Shown piece after piece: positions 185 through 23,823 of a DNA stretch of 34,220 nucleotides (positions are counted from its first letter, which is position 1; each line of letters starts with the position of its first letter). The notes beneath the pieces are model-generated. The model saw nothing but the letters and a program-made list of their open reading frames with translations, had not been told where the DNA came from and ran no database searches. The position numbers were made by a program, and so were the translations under genes. The DNA comes from Piptocephalis cylindrospora (taxonomy: Eukaryota). The DNA lies in contig KZ987740.1 in the NCBI GenBank assembly GCA_003614145.1, forward strand, positions 1 to 34,220. The letters run 5' to 3'.

Positions 185-399
185 TATCTTTCTTAATTAT
201 CTTAGAGCCACCAGTCAATACGCTTTTACAATAGTTTATCTTTCTTAATTATCTTAGAGCCACCAGTCAATACGCTTTTACAATAGTTTATCTTTCTTAA
301 TTATCTTAGAGCCACCAGTCAATACGCTTTTACAATAGTTTATCTTTCTTAATTATCTTAGAGCCACCAGTCAATACGCTTTTACAATAGTTTATCTTT
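185..399. repeat. Perfect 52-bp tandem repeat, 4 copies plus 7 bp
   Basis: The unit TATCTTTCTTAATTATCTTAGAGCCACCAGTCAATACGCTTTTACAATAGTT starts at 185, 237, 289 and 341, with a partial copy at 393-399. There are no spacers. Confidence 0.97.
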
Positions 400-13769: not shown

Positions 13770-15762
13770 CTAATCATGTATATGTTGCTTTTTCCTCGTT
13801 TGTTTCTCCTTCTTACGCCTTTCAGCATCTGCAACTGCAGCCTCCTTTGCCTTTTGGCCGGCCTTTTCCGCATACGCCTTGATTTCCTCTTGCTTCTCCA
13901 TAATCCACTTCATACACAGAGGACCCAAATTGTCCCGCTCAGTATCCTGGATCAAGGGGCCTCTGGCCAATTGCCAGGGGATGACGTAATTTTCCAGAAT
14001 ATCCCGGATCCAAAATCCAAGAGGGATACCCAAGGCTTTGGCCATGGCCTTCCCATCAATGGCATATTTGAGTTCGTAGGTATGGCTGAGATCCTGCTCC
14101 TCAATTTCCTTGAGGAGGTCGAGATAAGGCTCGAGGGATATCTCGGAGGAGCCTTGGGCCATCCTACCTGCAAGGTGCAGGGGAAGTGCTAGTCTCCAAG
14201 CAGGGCCCACGTGTGGATGCCTCCCCATTTCCCGAATGGCCAGGCCCAATTTGACACGATCATGTCCTGTGGTCTGTATGAGCTCTTCAACATGAGTTTG
14301 AGCTAGAAAGAGACCCGTGATGCAATCAGCCTGAGCATTTGACAGCTGCGTAAAGGGAATGAAGGGATGAGTATGGCCAAGATGAGCAGGACAGAGAGTA
14401 ATGCAGCAATGGCTTAATTACCTTTAAGCTTTCTTTGATAACAACAGAAGCGGCAGAAATTTCCTTTTTCCCGCGGGACACGTCTTGACCACGAAGGTGC
14501 CATAAAGCAGCGGCCAAATAAATGGTCTCCTCCCATGATCCTGCCCCTTCGGCATCTCCTGATCCCACCATACCCAAAAGTACTTTTGCATCCTCTGGGG
14601 AACCTTGGATGATCTTGTACAAGGCTGTGGCAGTATCCAGGGACACCTTTGGGTCAATGATGGGGACCCCTGCAGCCTCAAAGACAATAGGAAATAGCCC
14701 AGCACGATGGAGAAGTTTTAATGCCTCAGTCGGGCCTGGTCCGCGTAGCATCTTCGTGACCTCAACGCCAATGCGTTCCCGACTGATCTTGCGCGCAAGG
14801 GCCTCCTGAACCTGGGGAAGACACATGGCCTCGTAGGTCGCTGGATCCAGGGCAAAGTGAAAGCGGCAGGTGAACCGGATACACCGAAGAATCCTCAGGG
14901 GATCATCCATGAATGTTTCGATGGGGGGCAGCGGCGTCCTCACCCGATGATCCCGCAAGTCCTTCAGACCCGTCCCCACAAAATCCTCTACTTGACGCGA
15001 GTGAATATTGTAGAAAAGGGCATTGATAGTGATGTCCCGTCGATACGCATCCTGCTCTGGGGTTCCAAATGCCTTACGAAGGGGAGATGCAAAGGAGAAG
15101 GAGTGAGTTAGGGATCATTGTATACTCATTAGTGATCCTTCCCTAATGACTCGACTTACCACGGTGGTAGGGATACGGCTATCCTCGCCGTATGTCTCAT
15201 TTCTTAGATGAACAAAATCAATAGGCAGACCAGCAACCCAAGTGGTGGCGGTTTCAAGATGCTTACTACGCTCTGGATTCACCGAGATCTTCCCGACGGA
15301 CCGAGTCTCCTTTCCCTGTGCCTCCAACCACTGTACCACTGCCTCGGCCAGTTCAGCTCCGGTCATGGAGGAGGCAGCGATATCCAAATCATGACATGCC
15401 AGGCCTAGTAACTTATCCCGAACCCAACCTCCAGCGATGCGGATGACCAAGGGTGGGTTCATCCGGTCGGATTTTTGGGTCATGGACAGGGTATGAACTA
15501 CCTGTCGTAGTACCTCACATACTTCCTCCTCCTGAGGGGTAAGGTTAAGCTGAGGACCCTGGGGGCTCGACATAACGGTGCGACAAAAAGATTTTGTGCA
15601 AGGTGGAGGGGAAAGAGGGGTGGGAGAAGGGCTTCGTTTTTGTCGAGGCTGGGTCATGGACCACTGAACTAGGGCGCGTCTCGAGAAGGGCCCAGGAGCA
15701 GACGAAAAGGGGCAAACTGAGAATGGAATGGGAACGCGAAGGGGGAGAAGGCGCAGGAGCAT
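13770..15762 (-). CDS. CCA1: CCA tRNA nucleotidyltransferase
   Basis: complement(join(13770..14345,14422..15072,15160..15762)). Motifs: RIAGGWVRDKLLG..DLDIA, NPERSKHLETAT, DFVHLRNETY, FGTPEQDAYRRDITINALFYN, TFMDDPLRILRCIRF, ISRERIGVE. Confidence 0.95.
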
Positions 15763-16019
15763 CCAAGAGCATGGAAGACACTGGTGGCTGTTGTTAAGGA
15801 AGTAAACAACCCCTTTATTTTGGCTATAAGGGTTTCTACAAGGGACACCACACCTCTGTTTGGATTTGCTGGTGGCATTGCACAAGCCTATCTCCCATAC
15901 TAAGGATGCATACCATCTTATCCCACAATTCCTTCTTAAGAAACCTCGAGCATTATACTAACTACCGAGAATGCGCTCATCACCGCCCCACAAGCCCCCT
16001 TTTCTCCCTATTATCTGTG

Positions 16020-17460
16020 GTGCTATGATCGGCGGATCAAGCCCACACTGGACTCTAAATCCCCACCATCCTCCTCGGGAGAGGAGGGCGGAGGGGAAAG
16101 GCCCTAAACCCAGGGAAATCTGGAGAAGGCCGTAGCTGTCTGGCGGAGCTGAGTAGAGGGCGAGTGAGTAGAGTGCCAGCCAGGTGTGGGCAAGGCAGGT
16201 GGGGGAAGCATGTTGTTGAGGACGAGAGAGGATACTATGGAGGGGGAGGAGATGAGTGAGGCTGGCTTGGTTGTTGTGTCCGCGCGCACGCTCTGCCATG
16301 AAGGAAAATGGGATGGAGACATGAGGCCTATTTTCATGCCCCTGGGGCATGTATCGGATAGTGCGTATGCGAGACTGGCTTGGTAAAGGTGTGCGGTTAT
16401 GGGATGAATGGCGAAGCGATTGTGGGTTGATCAACTAGTGCTATTGCGATAGTGGTTCCTCGGTGTGTGGCGTGTACTGTTGTGTCCAGAAAGTCAGCTT
16501 GCTTGGCAGAAAGAGCATTTTGTCGCTGCTTCGCTTCACCAAAGCTATTCTTGTCCCTTGTTCTTCCATCTCTTGTCTCTTTTATGCTTGCGCCGTATGA
16601 CGCACACGCTGGATATGGAGTGGTGGTGTGGCGAGCAGGAATCCCATCGGGTCCATATGCGTCTCTCGTAAACCGCGTATACGGTCGACTTGGGGAAGAG
16701 GTCTTCTTTTCCCTCCGACTGACTCGATGGCCCTGCTTTCTCTACTCCTCCGTTCCTGTACAGTGTGCTGTGTATTGTGCACGCATTTGAGGAGAAGAGA
16801 GGGAGGGACAAGGGTGAGAGGAGTGGTGAGGCTAAGGTGGATAAGATAGGATACTGTTTCGCCACACTAGCTGATTTTCTGCACAGCAGCTGCATGTCTG
16901 GAGGGTGGCTTCACTCTGGCCTCGCCCTCCCATCGACACATGTCTATGTAGTCCTGATTCCCCCTATTCGCTTCTTTTTCACCCCTTCCCACCCTTCTTT
17001 GTCCAGCTTTCGCTGGTACCACGCCCTAGTTGTGCATGCGCTGTGTACGATACACCCCTTGAGGCTGGACTCGTCTACATCCTTCCTTTATGGTGTGCAG
17101 GTCGCTATAACCAATCCCCACACTTATTGCCCGCCCTGTCTTCTTTGTGCTCTAGCTCTATGCCCCTCTTTCAATTCATGTTTCCCTCAGTCTCCGAGTT
17201 CTTTTGGAGACAGCCGCGTCTTGCTCTCTTGGCGCGAAAGCCTCGCTTCCCCTTAAATCACTTTGCCTCGTAGCCCTGCCCTCCCTCCTTTTCCTAGGGG
17301 TAAGGGCTCTGTCCAGTGTGTATGCTTACTGTATCTGATGCTGAAGCGCCAACTATATGAATATGCGATGTTCCATAGTACGTCGATGGTCTGGGGACTT
17401 TCACGAGCCTCCTGATTCTTCAACCCGTCTGGCGCCTCCAAAAACATGCACATTTCCTTT
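16020..17460 (+). ncRNA. Large structured non-coding RNA, candidate telomerase RNA (TR/TER); boundaries approximate
   Basis: No credible ORF. Many helices need G-U pairs on the + strand. CCCTAAACCC (16102-16111) is preceded by a GGGA-tetraloop hairpin (16061-16096), and an enclosing helix pairs 16035-16047 with 16421-16432. Crossing helices 16168-16175/16289-16296 and 16280-16287/16389-16396 form a pseudoknot topology. Confidence 0.55.
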
Positions 17461-17806
17461 TTTTCCTGTATCTAATAGAAAATGCCATTGCAATAGGCCT
17501 TAATGATAAAACAATTGTATGCTGTCTTGGAGATAAGTGTTTATCTGGCCAAGGGTTCATCCTTAAATGTTCAACTGTCGAATACAAATGCCATTCCATA
17601 GTCTAGCTTTAGATTTATCCAATGACGACGTCAAGTAGCCTTTCTGTATAAGTCTAATTTTTGATGGCAGAGCAATAAGATGGTGTTGTTATGACCAAGG
17701 ACCAGAGAAAGAGGACTAAGAGGGGAAAAGGTGATATATACCGACACGTGCCCTAGACGTGGCCATGCTTCCGTAATGTCAATGAGAGCGATGGGCCAGG
17801 AAGCAC

Positions 17807-19186
17807 TTACACCGTCATTTCCCGAGGCTCGTCCGTCGATCGTTGGATGGGAGGAGGGAATTGGGGCTCAGGGAAAGGGGTGCGAGGAGGATAGGGTCTC
17901 GTGGGTGTCCCGGGCCCTGACCCTGAAGGGGTCCCGGTCATCCGGGGAATAGGAGGAGGAGGAGGAGGGGGAGGGTAAGGACCAGATCTATGGCTGCCTA
18001 CAGGAGGATGACCTGGAGGAGAGGTGGGAGTAGAAGGAGCATAGGATGGCCTATTTGGGGCCGGGGAAGGCCTGGTCGCCCCGGAATGATGGTTAGGGTA
18101 AGGGGAGGACATGGATGGACCAGTTATAGGTGGACGGGGCGTAGGAGGTGGAACATATTGCTGATGATGAGGATGATTGTATCCTGATTGGCCTGAGGCT
18201 TCGGAACCATTCCTTCTCGGCCCCAACTGTAGGGGCGGGGGTGGAGGAGGATGGTATACCGAAGTAGATCCTACTTGGCCACCCATTGATCCCCCACTAC
18301 CCCCCGAGCCCATTCTCGAATGTTGAACCCTAGGGGGAGTGGGGGTATAGCTCGAGCCCATGGAACCTCCATGAGAGGATACTACACGCATTGGCGGAGG
18401 AGGGGGAGGAAGGGGAGTGGAATACCCTCCCGGGGGGGCTGCCCCGGCTTGACGGCCAGATTGTGCCTTTAAGTAGGGTAACATGTCGAATTTCTCCAAG
18501 GAAATGGGTGCGCATAGAACAAGACCAAAAATACCCCAAAGCACCACACACATATTAGGATGAGCCAGGGGGAAGAGGACGGGCATGGGCCAGAAGAGGG
18601 TGAGTGCGGTGAGGAGATAGAGTTGCCGCTTTTTCTGGATCAGATATGGCGTATCCTCAACCTCACGTAAAAAAAGAATGGTGGCTCCCAGCTGGAGAAA
18701 GGAGATAATGTTGACAAGGACATGAAGAATCTCAAAGGCGAGGAAGGTATAGGGAGAGTACCCAGTGGCGTACTCAATCCCAAGGATGCACATGCAGCAG
18801 GCCGTGGTAATCCCCAGAGTAGGGGCGTACACCTGAGGAGTCCATTGAAATCGTTGGATGAATTGACGGGCCTCTACATCATCCACCTCTCGCATACTCC
18901 TCATCCAGATGGAATAGAGTTGGGTGGTGGTTACAATGGTCCCAAGGACAACTAGGGCATCTAGGAGTTTGGACACCAATTCGGCCGTCTCCTGCGCTCT
19001 CCACCGTGTCAGTTGATACAGCAGGAGAGATGCTGTGAATCCAGCAAGGTCCATAGCCTGAAGTATACCGAGTTGCAAGTACCACTTGCAATAGGTTCGA
19101 AAATAGCGAGACCATACCACAAGAGCTACAAAAATGTGGACGGCCAGATGCGGGATGGCCGGGATGGACCAATCGAATCGAGACAT
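17807..19186 (-). CDS. Orphan ~7-TM membrane protein with a long proline-rich C-terminal tail (GPCR-like topology)
   Basis: 459-aa intronless ORF. About seven hydrophobic segments lie in residues ~9-230, followed by ~230 aa of Pro/Gly/Ser-rich low-complexity sequence with several P6-P8 runs. Confidence 0.75.
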   Translation of the reverse strand: MSRFDWSIPAIPHLAVHIFVALVVWSRYFRTYCKWYLQLGILQAMDLAGFTASLLLYQLTRWRAQETAELVSKLLDALVVLGTIVTTTQLYSIWMRSMREVDDVEARQFIQRFQWTPQVYAPTLGITTACCMCILGIEYATGYSPYTFLAFEILHVLVNIISFLQLGATILFLREVEDTPYLIQKKRQLYLLTALTLFWPMPVLFPLAHPNMCVVLWGIFGLVLCAPISLEKFDMLPYLKAQSGRQAGAAPPGGYSTPLPPPPPPMRVVSSHGGSMGSSYTPTPPRVQHSRMGSGGSGGSMGGQVGSTSVYHPPPPPPLQLGPRRNGSEASGQSGYNHPHHQQYVPPPTPRPPITGPSMSSPYPNHHSGATRPSPAPNRPSYAPSTPTSPPGHPPVGSHRSGPYPPPPPPPPIPRMTGTPSGSGPGTPTRPYPPRTPFPEPQFPPPIQRSTDEPREMTV

Positions 19187-20246: not shown

Positions 20247-21074
20247 CTACTCATCGTTAGTGTCCTGGGTATCCTCAGAACTTCCATTGGAGGAAGCTTT
20301 AGAGACCTTATCGGCAGGGAGAACACCAGTAGCCTTAGAGTTGGCAGCCTCACCAGCATAAATGGAATCAAGATCAGGAACCGCAGTGGTGGCAGGAGCA
20401 GGATTGGTTGAGCCCCAAGAGACCGAGTACCATTCGGAAGGAAGCTTCTCCGGGTTGTCTCCGGGGAGTAGAACGGCCCTTTGACTATCCTTCTCGGTGG
20501 CGGTGGCACCTTGTAGGATCCGCGCCTCAACTGAGCCATCGGGATGTAAGGCAGTAACGGAGAAGTTGGACGTTTTCATGATCTTTTGCGCACCCTGAAT
20601 ATCAGGAAGGCTGGCCTCTGCCAATCCTGATAGCCACCAAGCCCCAGATGCGTTTTTCATACCGAGACCAATGGTCGTGAAATCAGTAGAAAGGATAGAC
20701 TCGGGAGAGGGCTTGAAGTAGTCCATACCATTGGTATCTTTAAGGTAAAGGGTATTCGATAACGACAACGACTTTACAGTTGTGCTTACGTTTTCAGTGT
20801 CCTTTACCCCCGCGTTCTCTGTTCTTGTATCCACCTGGTAGACACAACCTGGTTCGGGCGCCCCAGTCCGACGAAGGACGGCAATCGGACTGCCTCCGCC
20901 ACCAGCACAGAGGAAGTAGAGAGTAGTTTTGTTCTGCTGATCGACATACTGAGTGACAAAGGAACGGTAATCGCCCCACTCCAAGATCGTTCTCGAAGGA
21001 CCATCCGAGAATGGAAGGGAGAGGCAGGCGGGAAGGGCCAGCAAGAGGGCTGCAAGGGAGATGGAAAGCTGCAT
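20247..21074 (-). CDS. Secreted orphan protein, 275 aa
   Basis: Clear signal peptide (MQLSISLAALLLALPACLS), intronless, beta-rich looking body and an acidic Ser/Thr tail. No recognised domain. Confidence 0.8.
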   Translation of the reverse strand: MQLSISLAALLLALPACLSLPFSDGPSRTILEWGDYRSFVTQYVDQQNKTTLYFLCAGGGGSPIAVLRRTGAPEPGCVYQVDTRTENAGVKDTENVSTTVKSLSLSNTLYLKDTNGMDYFKPSPESILSTDFTTIGLGMKNASGAWWLSGLAEASLPDIQGAQKIMKTSNFSVTALHPDGSVEARILQGATATEKDSQRAVLLPGDNPEKLPSEWYSVSWGSTNPAPATTAVPDLDSIYAGEAANSKATGVLPADKVSKASSNGSSEDTQDTNDE

Positions 21075-21189
21075 TGTATGAGAGTAGGTGGGAAGATGGG
21101 AAAGTGGAGTGGTGGTTGGGAAAGGGCAACGAAGTCCGGCAACGTTGGATCAGGGAGGGAAAGGCGGGAGGAAGACGGGAAGGAGGAGT

Positions 21190-21259
21190 GGAGAATGGAG
21201 AGTGGAGAGTGGGGAATGGGGAATGGGGAATGGGGAGTGGGGAATGGGGATGAGGGAAT
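21190..21259. repeat. Heptamer repeat GGRGART (GGGGAAT/GGAGAGT), ~9-10 units
   Basis: The sequence reads ggagaat ggagagt ggagagt ggggaat ggggaat ggggaat ggggagt ggggaat ggggat. It lies ~115 bp upstream of the ATG at 21074. Confidence 0.9.
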
Positions 21260-21665
21260 ATGAACGTAAAGTGTAAAAAGGGAAACTGCATCCCCTCCTA
21301 TTTATCTCTTCCTGCAGGAGGCTGCTTGGGCACGAGATCTCCCGGCTCTCCAAGACAACCATAGCGGAGCCTTAATTGCATCCAAGGCATTTGCACCACT
21401 AAGAATCCTCCCATCCCCAGTGTCGTAGAGCCTATCTTAATCACAGCATCTATCGCTGTTGTCTGCTTCTAGCGGAGATAGTAGTAAAATGTATTCAGTT
21501 TAGGGCACCATTCACCTCATTCACCCCCGACAGCGTATGAAAAACTCAGCAAACTCCGCTCCACCATTCTTCTCGCATAGAATTAAGCAATGTACAGCAT
21601 AGTCCCCTCCACAGTGCATGGTCTCGGAGTGGCAATACCTACTCAGCGAATAGTCCGTATCATCC

Positions 21666-21734: not shown

Positions 21735-23128
21735 AGTGCAAGGATGGTCCAAATACACTCTTCTGCAGATACTGATAAGTCGTGAGGAGTATCGTCAATG
21801 CAGCTATGAAAGCAGCGCTACACAATTGAGAGTCACACACGTATCAAACGTCTGGTATCACCACCAGTCGCCTTGAGCCTTTCTCCTAGTGTAACAGCAT
21901 GACCACGGCGGTCTACTTGATAAAGGTCATTTTTCTTTGATATCTGGCAGCATCTTCGAAATGGGGAGTAATCTAGGAGACGGATCAAGCGAGTTTCATA
22001 CGTTAGGAGCATGACTTGTAGCATTTGAATATCTGCCTTTAATCTGATACAACATCGTCCAGCATAGTATAGAATTGAATCATGATCCGACCGATTCCAA
22101 GCTCCTCTCGACCTCATTCAACTAGTGGCATGGGAAACGACGTGGAATGGGCGGAGGCACAGGTTGGATGCCCTGGTCTGATCTGGTCAATAAGGTAGAA
22201 AGAGCCGAGTGGAGTAAATGCATCAGCTGGAGTCTCATGCCAGGCCATCTTTTCCTTCCTTAGTGGACGCGTATTGACGACCTTAGCCATGGACACATCG
22301 TGCTTTCCCGTCAGTAGATGATGGATATGCTTCAATGTCTTTTTACTCATGCCACCAGACGCACCGGATGAGGACCCTTAGCCAAATAGATCAGCGCTCC
22401 TTTCCCTCTTTCTTTATAGTAATACCCATACAATTTTCAACTTTCCGATACTGTCCTAGAAAGATAGAGAGATGCGCGAAATAGAAAGAGGAACGAGTCT
22501 AGGATTGAGAGGTCATAGAGATCCGGGGATACACACACAATATTGTATTCCCCAGTTGAATTGCGCATCCTGCAACTCATTAGAATCACGAAAAGCAATT
22601 CCATCAAGGCATGCACACATTTGGCATCCTATTGTAATCCGTAAAATGCATGTGGTCACCTATTTACAGGTAATGCGGGCTTGTAAGTAGCGCCTGTCCT
22701 CCACGACATAATGGTACGGAGAAGGGTTTAATCCCTAGGGCAATCTCATTTAATCCCCCATAGACAGGCCACGATCTGGTGTGGGTCATTGAATGTCCAC
22801 CATATCCGCACCAGACACGTATCCACAAGAGGATGTACACATACTCGCCCTTTTCATACTTCCCTCCATCAACCATCGGTCGGAGCTGTCTCCCCCCTCC
22901 CCCCTTTCTTCCCTGAAATCTCTCATCCCTCCCTCCCAAACCACCCATATTATCAGTAACACATCGCCACTTGACACTTCCCCCCTCGCTACCGCACAAC
23001 CTCCAATACCCCTTTTTATCCCATGTTGCTTGCCTGCCGCTATCTCAAACATCCCTTTCTTTCCCTCTTTCTCTCTTCTTCTAAAAAATAACCTGCTCAA
23101 CTCGACCTTTTCTACCCACTCTCCTACC

Positions 23129-23823
23129 ATGCTACCAGAATTCTCCAACGAACACTCGGGATCGGTGGACACCGCCTCCTCCGAAGATATCCAACCTTTG
23201 GCTCCTCCCACCCCAACGGGCTCCTCCCGTCCTCCCCTTCCCACACCACCTTCCACGTCCACCTCTTCCTCCTCTCGTCCCCCCGCTCCGCCTTCCTCCT
23301 CAGCTCGTCCGCCTCCCCCCCCCCTACCAATGCCCCTCCCTTGCCCCCGGCCCCAAGGACCCGACCTAGCCGGGCTTACTCGGACTTTCGTGGAGCTGGT
23401 CATGCCGAAGACGGTCATTGGAATGACCCCCCCAAGGAGGCGGATGGGACAGAGGGCCTCCAGGACCCCTTGGGAACCCAGGAACAGAGACAGGCCGTCA
23501 GTGATAATGTCACAGCTCTGCTCACCACTTTGACTTCAGCCCCTTCCTCTAACTCGGATATGCCCCCGAAGCGTGCCATCGATGACATGACCAAGCGGCT
23601 TGGCATCCTCAAGGACCGAATCTTATCTCATCAACTCACTCCCCGTACCGCCACTGACCTTACTTCTCTCATCACTGCCGTCGAGAATAAGGAATGGGAT
23701 GAGGCTGGGAAAGTGTACGCCCGCATGATCCAAGAGGTGTATGAGCAGGAGGGCAAGTGGCTACCCGGGATGAAACGGCTGATTGAATGTTTGAAGAAGC
23801 TGGACAGCGATACGACAGAGTAA
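23129..23823 (+). CDS. SRA1/Sec31 C-terminal domain protein (SRAP-like), with an apparent frameshift near 23320
   Basis: The GHWNDPP motif and a C-terminal helical domain ending KWLPGMKRLI are typical of SRA1/Sec31-C. The ATG at 23129 is out of frame with the domain, and the two frames overlap across C10 at 23315-23324. Confidence 0.7.

What the first reader, a model, noticed from the sequence alone, without database searches (positions are those of the whole stretch)
16102..16111. Template predicts plant-type (TTTAGGG)n telomeres in a fungus
If the 10-mer is a template, it encodes GGGTTTAGGG. That is the 7-nt repeat known from Arabidopsis, not TTAGGG, which is regarded as ancestral in fungi. 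This is a sharp prediction and would mark a telomere-repeat change in this lineage.
Basis: inference. Interest (0 to 1): 0.7.

Follow-up and report, generated by a model that had tools for sequence, protein, structure and literature searches.

The report
Possible telomerase template in rod-shaped RNA
A ten-letter word that could template plant-type TTTAGGG chromosome ends lies near the start of a likely 1.5-kb non-coding RNA of a parasitic fungus, but it is predicted to be base-paired shut, the fungus's telomeres were not seen, and this repeat is already reported in other fungi.

Summary
CCCTAAACCC is at 16102-16111 and is the only such word in this 34-kb contig of Piptocephalis cylindrospora (Zoopagomycota). 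Alone it is weak: a TTTAGGG-type 10-mer appears in 21% of simulated windows.

Context helps. RNA-library contigs cover 16023-17511 without a splice joint. The + strand folds into one 1.3-kb rod (z -10.5), and the word lies 72-79 nt from the covered 5' edge, 4 nt after a stable hairpin, inside a closing helix. That is the layout of a fungal telomerase RNA.

Three results go against it. The word is predicted paired in register with 17281-17310 (z -4.8, about 12 kcal/mol to open, like any rod segment). No U-A.U pseudoknot beat shuffles. No free P6.1 hairpin lies inside the RNA.

No homologous locus and no telomere reads were reachable, so the repeat is untested. TTTAGGG is already reported in Phanerochaete and Penicillium polonicum, and T-number variants in early-diverging fungi, so the switch would be minor. 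The real interest is a candidate telomerase RNA in a phylum where my searches found none. Probability about 0.4.

The parts
16102..16111 (+). Candidate telomerase template, 7-nt unit plus 3-nt alignment repeat; predicted paired (16101-16105 with 17303-17307, p 0.98; 16109-16111 with 17297-17299, p 0.62)
16023..17511 (+). Likely non-coding RNA of about 1.5 kb; strand inferred from folding, not from reads; longest + strand ATG ORF 120 aa, frameshifted in the second strain
   Evidence: RNA-library contigs; ORFs; strand
16060..16097 (+). Stable hairpin ending 4 nt before the word; template-boundary-like
   Evidence: pair probabilities 0.97-1.0
16044..16053 (+). 5' strand of a 10-bp closing helix (pairs with 17311-17320); core-enclosing-helix-like
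   Evidence: p 0.94
16128..17280 (+). Long imperfect rod arm with small side hairpins and a forked apex (16644-16730)
17281..17310 (+). Strand complementary in register to 16098-16127, covering the word; refolds into a weak hairpin with a U-rich loop (17278-17307) when the word is forced open
17311..17320 (+). 3' strand of the closing helix
17327..17511 (+). 3' tail with no folding signal (z +0.4), holding a U-rich run at 17453-17466; two RNA runs stop at 17511
15163..15573 (-). First coding stretch of the divergent neighbour, CCA-adding tRNA nucleotidyltransferase (context)
   Evidence: Pfam PF01743; 100% match to P0121
17807..19186 (-). Convergent neighbour, 459-aa ORF with a hydrophobic N-part and proline-rich tail, no Pfam family above cut-off (context)

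Best explanation
The 10-mer lies near the 5' end of a likely 1.5-kb non-coding RNA that may be the telomerase RNA of Piptocephalis cylindrospora, in which case it would template TTTAGGG repeats. Proposed working: TERT would anneal the telomere's terminal GGG to the 3' CCC (16109-16111), copy AAA-T-CCC as TTTAGGG, stop at the hairpin 16060-16097 and realign. In the free RNA the word is predicted shut by the G-rich strand 17296-17307, which resembles the telomeric product, so an open/closed switch driven by protein binding would be needed. Shown: the word, its place, RNA-library cover, the computed fold. Inferred: strand, RNA identity, template use, switch, telomere repeat.
For: One contig of run X2 covers 16030-17511 with no joint; X3, X4 and X5 hold pieces between 16023 and 17511 (3 samples of 1 study). 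The + strand folds at -643.6 kcal/mol, z -10.5 (25 shuffles), against z -4.1 for the - strand; G-U outnumber A-C appositions 16 to 5 (p 0.027). The rod beats all 13 other 1300-nt windows sampled on both strands (-607; next -517, which overlaps it, then -480). The word is on the inferred RNA strand, 72-79 nt from the covered 5' edge; any TnAGm unit+3 word occurs in the first 300 nt in 2.4% of shuffles. The order closing helix, hairpin, word, long arm, closing helix matches the N. crassa core described in PMC3592445 (passages), and a short boundary hairpin is described for Aspergillus (PMC3603654). No Rfam family at gathering score, and only sub-threshold chance-level rows in 5 e-value scans. 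All 3 strain differences fit the fold (bulge, G-C to G-U, loop deletion). A closed majority conformation is reported for moss telomerase RNA (reviews PMC12133305 and PMC11206666, passages).
Against: 16098-16127 pairs with 17281-17310 at -29.4 kcal/mol, z -4.8, stronger in z than 17 of 18 rod segments tested. Opening the 10-mer costs 11.5 kcal/mol, equal to the median of 20 rod positions (11.4). So it behaves as an ordinary helix. The strict pseudoknot scan gave 2 rows, both needing a partner at 17708 outside the RNA. The relaxed scan gave 5 rows against 7.5 in shuffles, and 92.5% of 40 shuffles scored as well. P6.1-type hairpins occur at 16770 (buried in the rod) and 17523 (past the RNA end), with 22 such hairpins on the + strand of the window. 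No Sm consensus. The 3' tail is unstructured. Low divergence is not specific: 2/1482 against 41/3485 (p 7e-5), but against 13/2459 (p 0.06) and 1/2015 in the adjacent 2.2 kb (p 0.58). An RNase MRP-like word of similar rarity lies on the other strand, showing that such words arise by chance. No homologue was found.
Confidence: 0.4

Rival explanations
1. The RNA is a real rod-shaped non-coding RNA that is not telomerase RNA. It would be a protein scaffold (an expanded sno/snRNA-like species) or a long hairpin cut by Dicer into small RNAs. The 10-mer is simply two C-runs that pair with two G-runs at the base of the rod, and predicts nothing about telomeres.
For: In-register pairing z -4.8 and a median opening cost; unpaired fraction 0.26 against 0.29 overall; no pseudoknot, P6.1 or Sm site; chance of any TnAGm word somewhere in the RNA is 32%.
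Against: The word's position, strand and place behind a hairpin would be coincidence (2.4% for position and strand). No Rfam family fits. No mechanism is supported by a test; small RNAs were not examined.
Confidence: 0.42
2. The RNA is telomerase RNA but copies a different or shorter template, with helix 16099-16105/17303-17310 acting as a long-range boundary, so the repeat is not TTTAGGG.
For: The 5' half of the word is paired at p 0.98. The word also fits TTTAGG and TTTAGGGG with 2-nt overlaps. Catenaria has TTTAGG.
Against: No other TnAGm template-like word lies on the + strand of the RNA. The pseudoknot and P6.1 failures apply equally.
Confidence: 0.08
3. A minus-strand RNase MRP RNA with a 1.3-kb insertion: an MRP CR-I-like word at 17402-17393 and a loose CR-V-like word near 15998 would form P4, and the 10-mer would be irrelevant antisense sequence.
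For: The CR-I-like word is unique in the window and lies about 110 nt from the contig edge at 17511 (motif recalled, not from a call).
Against: Folding favours the + strand. The strict CR-V pattern is absent. cmscan of 17330-17520 and 17200-17810 gave no MRP hit at E 10. The minus-strand 17327-17516 segment folds no better than shuffles (z +0.4).
Confidence: 0.05
4. The cover is a long 3' UTR or antisense read-through of the convergent gene, or DNA carried in the RNA libraries, and the word is chance.
For: Contigs give no strand or level, and all RNA runs are from one study. The word alone has a 21% chance per window.
Against: A z of -10.5 on the strand opposite to the convergent gene, with G-U asymmetry, is not expected of a UTR of that gene.
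Confidence: 0.05

Closest known systems
Neurospora crassa and Aspergillus telomerase RNAs (PMC3592445, passages; PMC3603654, parts 2-4 of 6)
   Same: Intergenic, 1.5-2 kb; order of closing helix, boundary hairpin, template of one unit plus 3 nt, long arm after the template.
   Different: They have a U-A.U pseudoknot and a 4-bp P6.1 hairpin with an NUNGN loop, and the A. oryzae template is predicted nearly all single-stranded. None of these was found here. Their repeat core is TTAGGG.
Ustilago maydis and Malassezia telomerase RNAs (PMC9564094, PMC10035886, PMC12506658; passages)
   Same: Similar size class in U. maydis (about 1.3 kb); template point changes track repeat changes in Malassezia.
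   Different: Pseudoknot and P6.1 are present there; the U. maydis RNA is cut from an mRNA precursor, whereas no joint or coding frame is seen here.
Physcomitrium patens telomerase RNA, OPEN/CLOSED states (seen only through reviews PMC12133305 and PMC11206666; primary paper not held)
   Same: Precedent for a telomerase RNA whose template region is mostly in a closed state in vivo.
   Different: A plant RNA of the Pol III, type-3-promoter class, shown by probing and knockout. I could not read which strand closes its template, so structural equivalence is untested.
Fungi with TTTAGGG telomeres: Phanerochaete chrysosporium (PMC7857110, PMC3622300 supplement), Penicillium polonicum (PMC10100673), some Aspergillus as potential motif (PMC10767889)
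   Same: The same predicted repeat, a one-T gain on TTAGGG.
   Different: These are Dikarya with the repeat read from genome data; here it is only predicted, in Zoopagomycota.

Membership tests
Fungal telomerase RNA | Template of more than one repeat with terminal direct repeats | tested here: met
   7+3 nt, unique in the window
Fungal telomerase RNA | Template complementary to the organism's telomere repeat | not testable with these tools
   No genome held; no telomere array on the contig; no paper with Piptocephalis and telomer
Fungal telomerase RNA | Template single-stranded | tested here: not met
   Predicted paired; 11.5-12.2 kcal/mol to open; thermodynamic model only, no protein
Fungal telomerase RNA | Template boundary helix just 5' of the template | tested here: met
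   Hairpin 16060-16097, 4 nt away; no covariation data
Fungal telomerase RNA | Core-enclosing helix | tested here: met
   16044-16053 with 17311-17320, p 0.94; also expected of any rod
Fungal telomerase RNA | Pseudoknot with U-A.U triples inside the core | tested here: not met
   Two single-sequence pattern scans, nothing above shuffles; a crude test without homologues
Fungal telomerase RNA | CR4/5 three-way junction with 4-bp P6.1 and NUNGN loop | tested here: not met
   Only 16770 (in the rod) and 17523 (past the RNA end); 22 such hairpins on the + strand of the window. Budding yeasts lack it too.
Fungal telomerase RNA | Intergenic, non-coding, transcribed | tested here: inconclusive
   Gap between two genes, ORFs of at most 120 aa on the + strand; RNA-library contigs cover it, but from one study and without strand
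Fungal telomerase RNA | Sm site or spliceosomal 3' end signals | tested here: inconclusive
   No Sm consensus; U-rich run at 17453-17466; not universal in filamentous fungi
Fungal telomerase RNA | Conserved template and covarying helices in relatives; activity with TERT | not testable with these tools
   No homologous locus
RNase MRP / RNase P RNA | CR-I and CR-V forming P4, covariance-model match | tested here: not met
   CR-I-like word on the - strand only, strict CR-V absent; no hit

The most novel reading that the evidence does not exclude
The first telomerase RNA of Zoopagomycota: a single 1.3-kb rod that templates TTTAGGG, lacks the usual pseudoknot and P6.1, and locks its own template with an internal strand that mimics the telomeric product until TERT opens it.
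Probability: 0.25. Interest if true: 0.72.

Novelty: new member of a known kind. Interest (0 to 1): 0.4.

Why it matters
The repeat change itself would add one more fungal case of a known one-T gain, here in a phylum for which my searches found no telomere data. The RNA matters more. Nine paper searches listed no telomerase RNA from Zoopagomycota. A confirmed one would bear on the ancestral fungal telomerase RNA fold and 3' processing, and a self-closed template would extend the open/closed idea beyond plants. The claim is cheap to test, because one k-mer count on raw reads decides the repeat. If it fails, an unannotated 1.3-kb rod RNA remains to be named.

Tried and rejected
Whole genome: none held, so contig ends, a TERT gene and competing template loci could not be examined.

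Homologues: an exact 24-nt pattern gave 0 in metagenome contigs, a 22-nt pattern gave 0 in viral contigs, and the CCA1 exon query gave 166 pattern matches with 0 confirmed. Earlier notes held nothing on this genome or sequence.

Rfam: 0 at gathering score; only sub-threshold, chance-level rows in 5 e-value scans.

The shared stop of X2 and X4 at 17511 is one study only; the 3 unaligned letters in X4 are not taken as a poly(A) tail, because other contigs are clipped by 1-3 letters too. Depth figures were not used to rank genes.

Purifying selection: one search left out three zero-difference pieces (948 nt). With them the contrast weakens and the adjacent 2.2 kb is just as conserved, so it is not counted as support. 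The non-coding labels were mine, two differences were unplaced, and 207 contig rows were hidden.

A CR4/5-like fold at about 17476-17547 was rejected because it straddles the RNA end. H/ACA and SRP readings were rejected by eye and by Rfam. A coding reading was rejected: no Pfam family above cut-off, and the 120-aa ORF carries a 1-nt deletion in the second strain. Telobox enrichment is absent: CCCTAAA 8 times and TTAGGG 18 times on both strands.

Full report
Observation. The word CCCTAAACCC is at 16102-16111 and would be copied as GGGTTTAGGG. It is the only 10-mer of the TTTAGGG phase set in the window, but 21% of 200 simulated windows hold one and 8% hold this exact word. The contig carries no telomere array.

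Organism and place. The CCA1 coding stretch matches 137 of 137 residues of a Piptocephalis cylindrospora protein recorded on a 34,220-base contig, and Rpb3 is 86% identical to P. tieghemiana. The next-best Rpb3 hits are Syncephalis and Thamnocephalis; placing these genera in Zoopagomycota is from my own knowledge. The word lies in a 2.2-kb gap between the CCA1 start (15573, - strand) and the stop of a 459-aa ORF (17807, - strand). No whole genome was held.

An RNA is likely made here. Of 9 runs listed, 6 were laid. One contig of RNA run X2 spans 16030-17511 with 2 substitutions, 1 gap and no joint; X3, X4 and X5 give pieces between 16023 and 17511. These are 3 samples of one study, found with this stretch, and contigs give neither strand nor level, so transcription is likely rather than shown. 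The longest + strand ATG ORF is 120 aa and is hit by the 1-nt deletion of the second strain.

Fold and strand. The + strand of 16030-17511 folds at -643.6 kcal/mol, z -10.5 on 25 shuffles; the - strand gives -503.7, z -4.1. In a Watson-Crick-only skeleton G-U appositions outnumber A-C 16 to 5 (p 0.027). The structure is a single rod: closing helix 16044-53/17311-20, hairpin 16060-97, then a 1.15-kb arm with a forked apex. The tail 17327-17516 folds no better than shuffles. The three strain differences fall in a bulge, a G-C to G-U change and an internal loop. Low divergence is shared with the next 2.2 kb and is not counted (which corrects).

For a template. The word is on the inferred RNA strand, 72-79 nt from the covered 5' edge and 4 nt behind the hairpin. 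Any of 112 TnAGm unit+3 words occurs in the first 300 nt in 2.4% of 2000 shuffles. The order of elements matches the N. crassa core (PMC3592445, passages), and short boundary hairpins close to the template are described for Aspergillus (PMC3603654, parts 2-4 of 6). Rfam offers no other identity.

Against a template. The 30 nt holding the word pair in register with 17281-17310 at -29.4 kcal/mol, z -4.8, and opening the word costs 11.5 kcal/mol, the median for 20 rod positions. Two pseudoknot scans found nothing above chance inside the RNA. The only P6.1-type hairpins are buried in the rod or lie past the RNA end, and there is no Sm consensus. A closed majority state is reported for moss telomerase RNA (reviews PMC12133305 and PMC11206666, passages; the primary paper was not held). 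Here the partner strand can refold into a hairpin with a U-rich loop, but that hairpin is not significant (z -0.4). An MRP-like word of similar rarity on the other strand (motif recalled) is a reminder that such 10-mers arise by chance.

Mechanism. The most likely single named identity is telomerase RNA copying TTTAGGG after a protein-driven opening (0.4). A non-telomerase rod RNA in which the word is only a helix strand has about the same total weight (0.42) but is a bundle of untested mechanisms. It is not filed as a member of the family: three defining features were tested on the single sequence and not met, and the decisive one, a match to the telomere, could not be tested. No homologue was found.

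What is known. TTAGGG is called ancestral in fungi, and TTTAGGG is said to have arisen independently in fungi among other groups (PMC3622300, passages). Its supplement file 2 lists Phanerochaete TTTAGGG, Mortierella TTTTTTAGGG, Catenaria TTTAGG, Allomyces T(2-6)AGG and Mucor TTAGGG (file 1 not searched). PMC7857110 (passages) also gives Phanerochaete, PMC10100673 (passages and supplement search) adds Penicillium polonicum, and PMC10767889 (passages and supplement search) notes potential TTTAGGG in several Aspergillus. Rhizophagus has TTAGGG (PMC10234402, passages). Passages were also read in PMC9564094, PMC12506658, PMC10035886, PMC11093817, PMC8287931 and PMC9119445. Searches for Piptocephalis with telomer and TTTAGGG with Mucorales and telomer gave 0 papers. 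Those for Zoopagomycota with telomerase or telomeric repeat listed 3 and 6 papers, none on a telomerase RNA by title or abstract start. The library omits most subscription journals.

Verdict. The predicted repeat change is untested, about 40% likely, and not new in kind. The candidate RNA around the word is the more valuable object. Interest 0.4.

Noticed in passing
window 17393-17402 (- strand) and about 15992-15998 (- strand): RNase MRP CR-I-like word, unique in the window, with a loose CR-V-like word 1.4 kb downstream on the same strand; treated as a weak rival.
   Followed up: partly
window 185-399: Perfect 52-bp tandem repeat, 4.1 copies, AT-rich, near the contig start.
   Followed up: no
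window 21177-21259: GGGAATG 7-mer array, about 12 copies at 81% match; G-rich but not complementary to the candidate template.
   Followed up: no
window 20254-21600: Stretch with a high density of strain differences, a 111-nt skip (20721-20833) and loose ends in several runs, suggesting a diverged or repeated element.
   Followed up: no
window 17493-17699: A separate RNA contig overlaps the candidate RNA's end by 19 nt, possibly the 3' UTR of the convergent gene.
   Followed up: partly
window 17807-19186 (- strand): 459-aa ORF with a hydrophobic N-terminal part and a proline-rich tail, no Pfam family above cut-off.
   Followed up: no
window 23092-23823 (+): Frame with an SRA1 domain hit; a 2-nt deletion at 23315 is seen in RNA runs and in part of the DNA run.
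   Followed up: no
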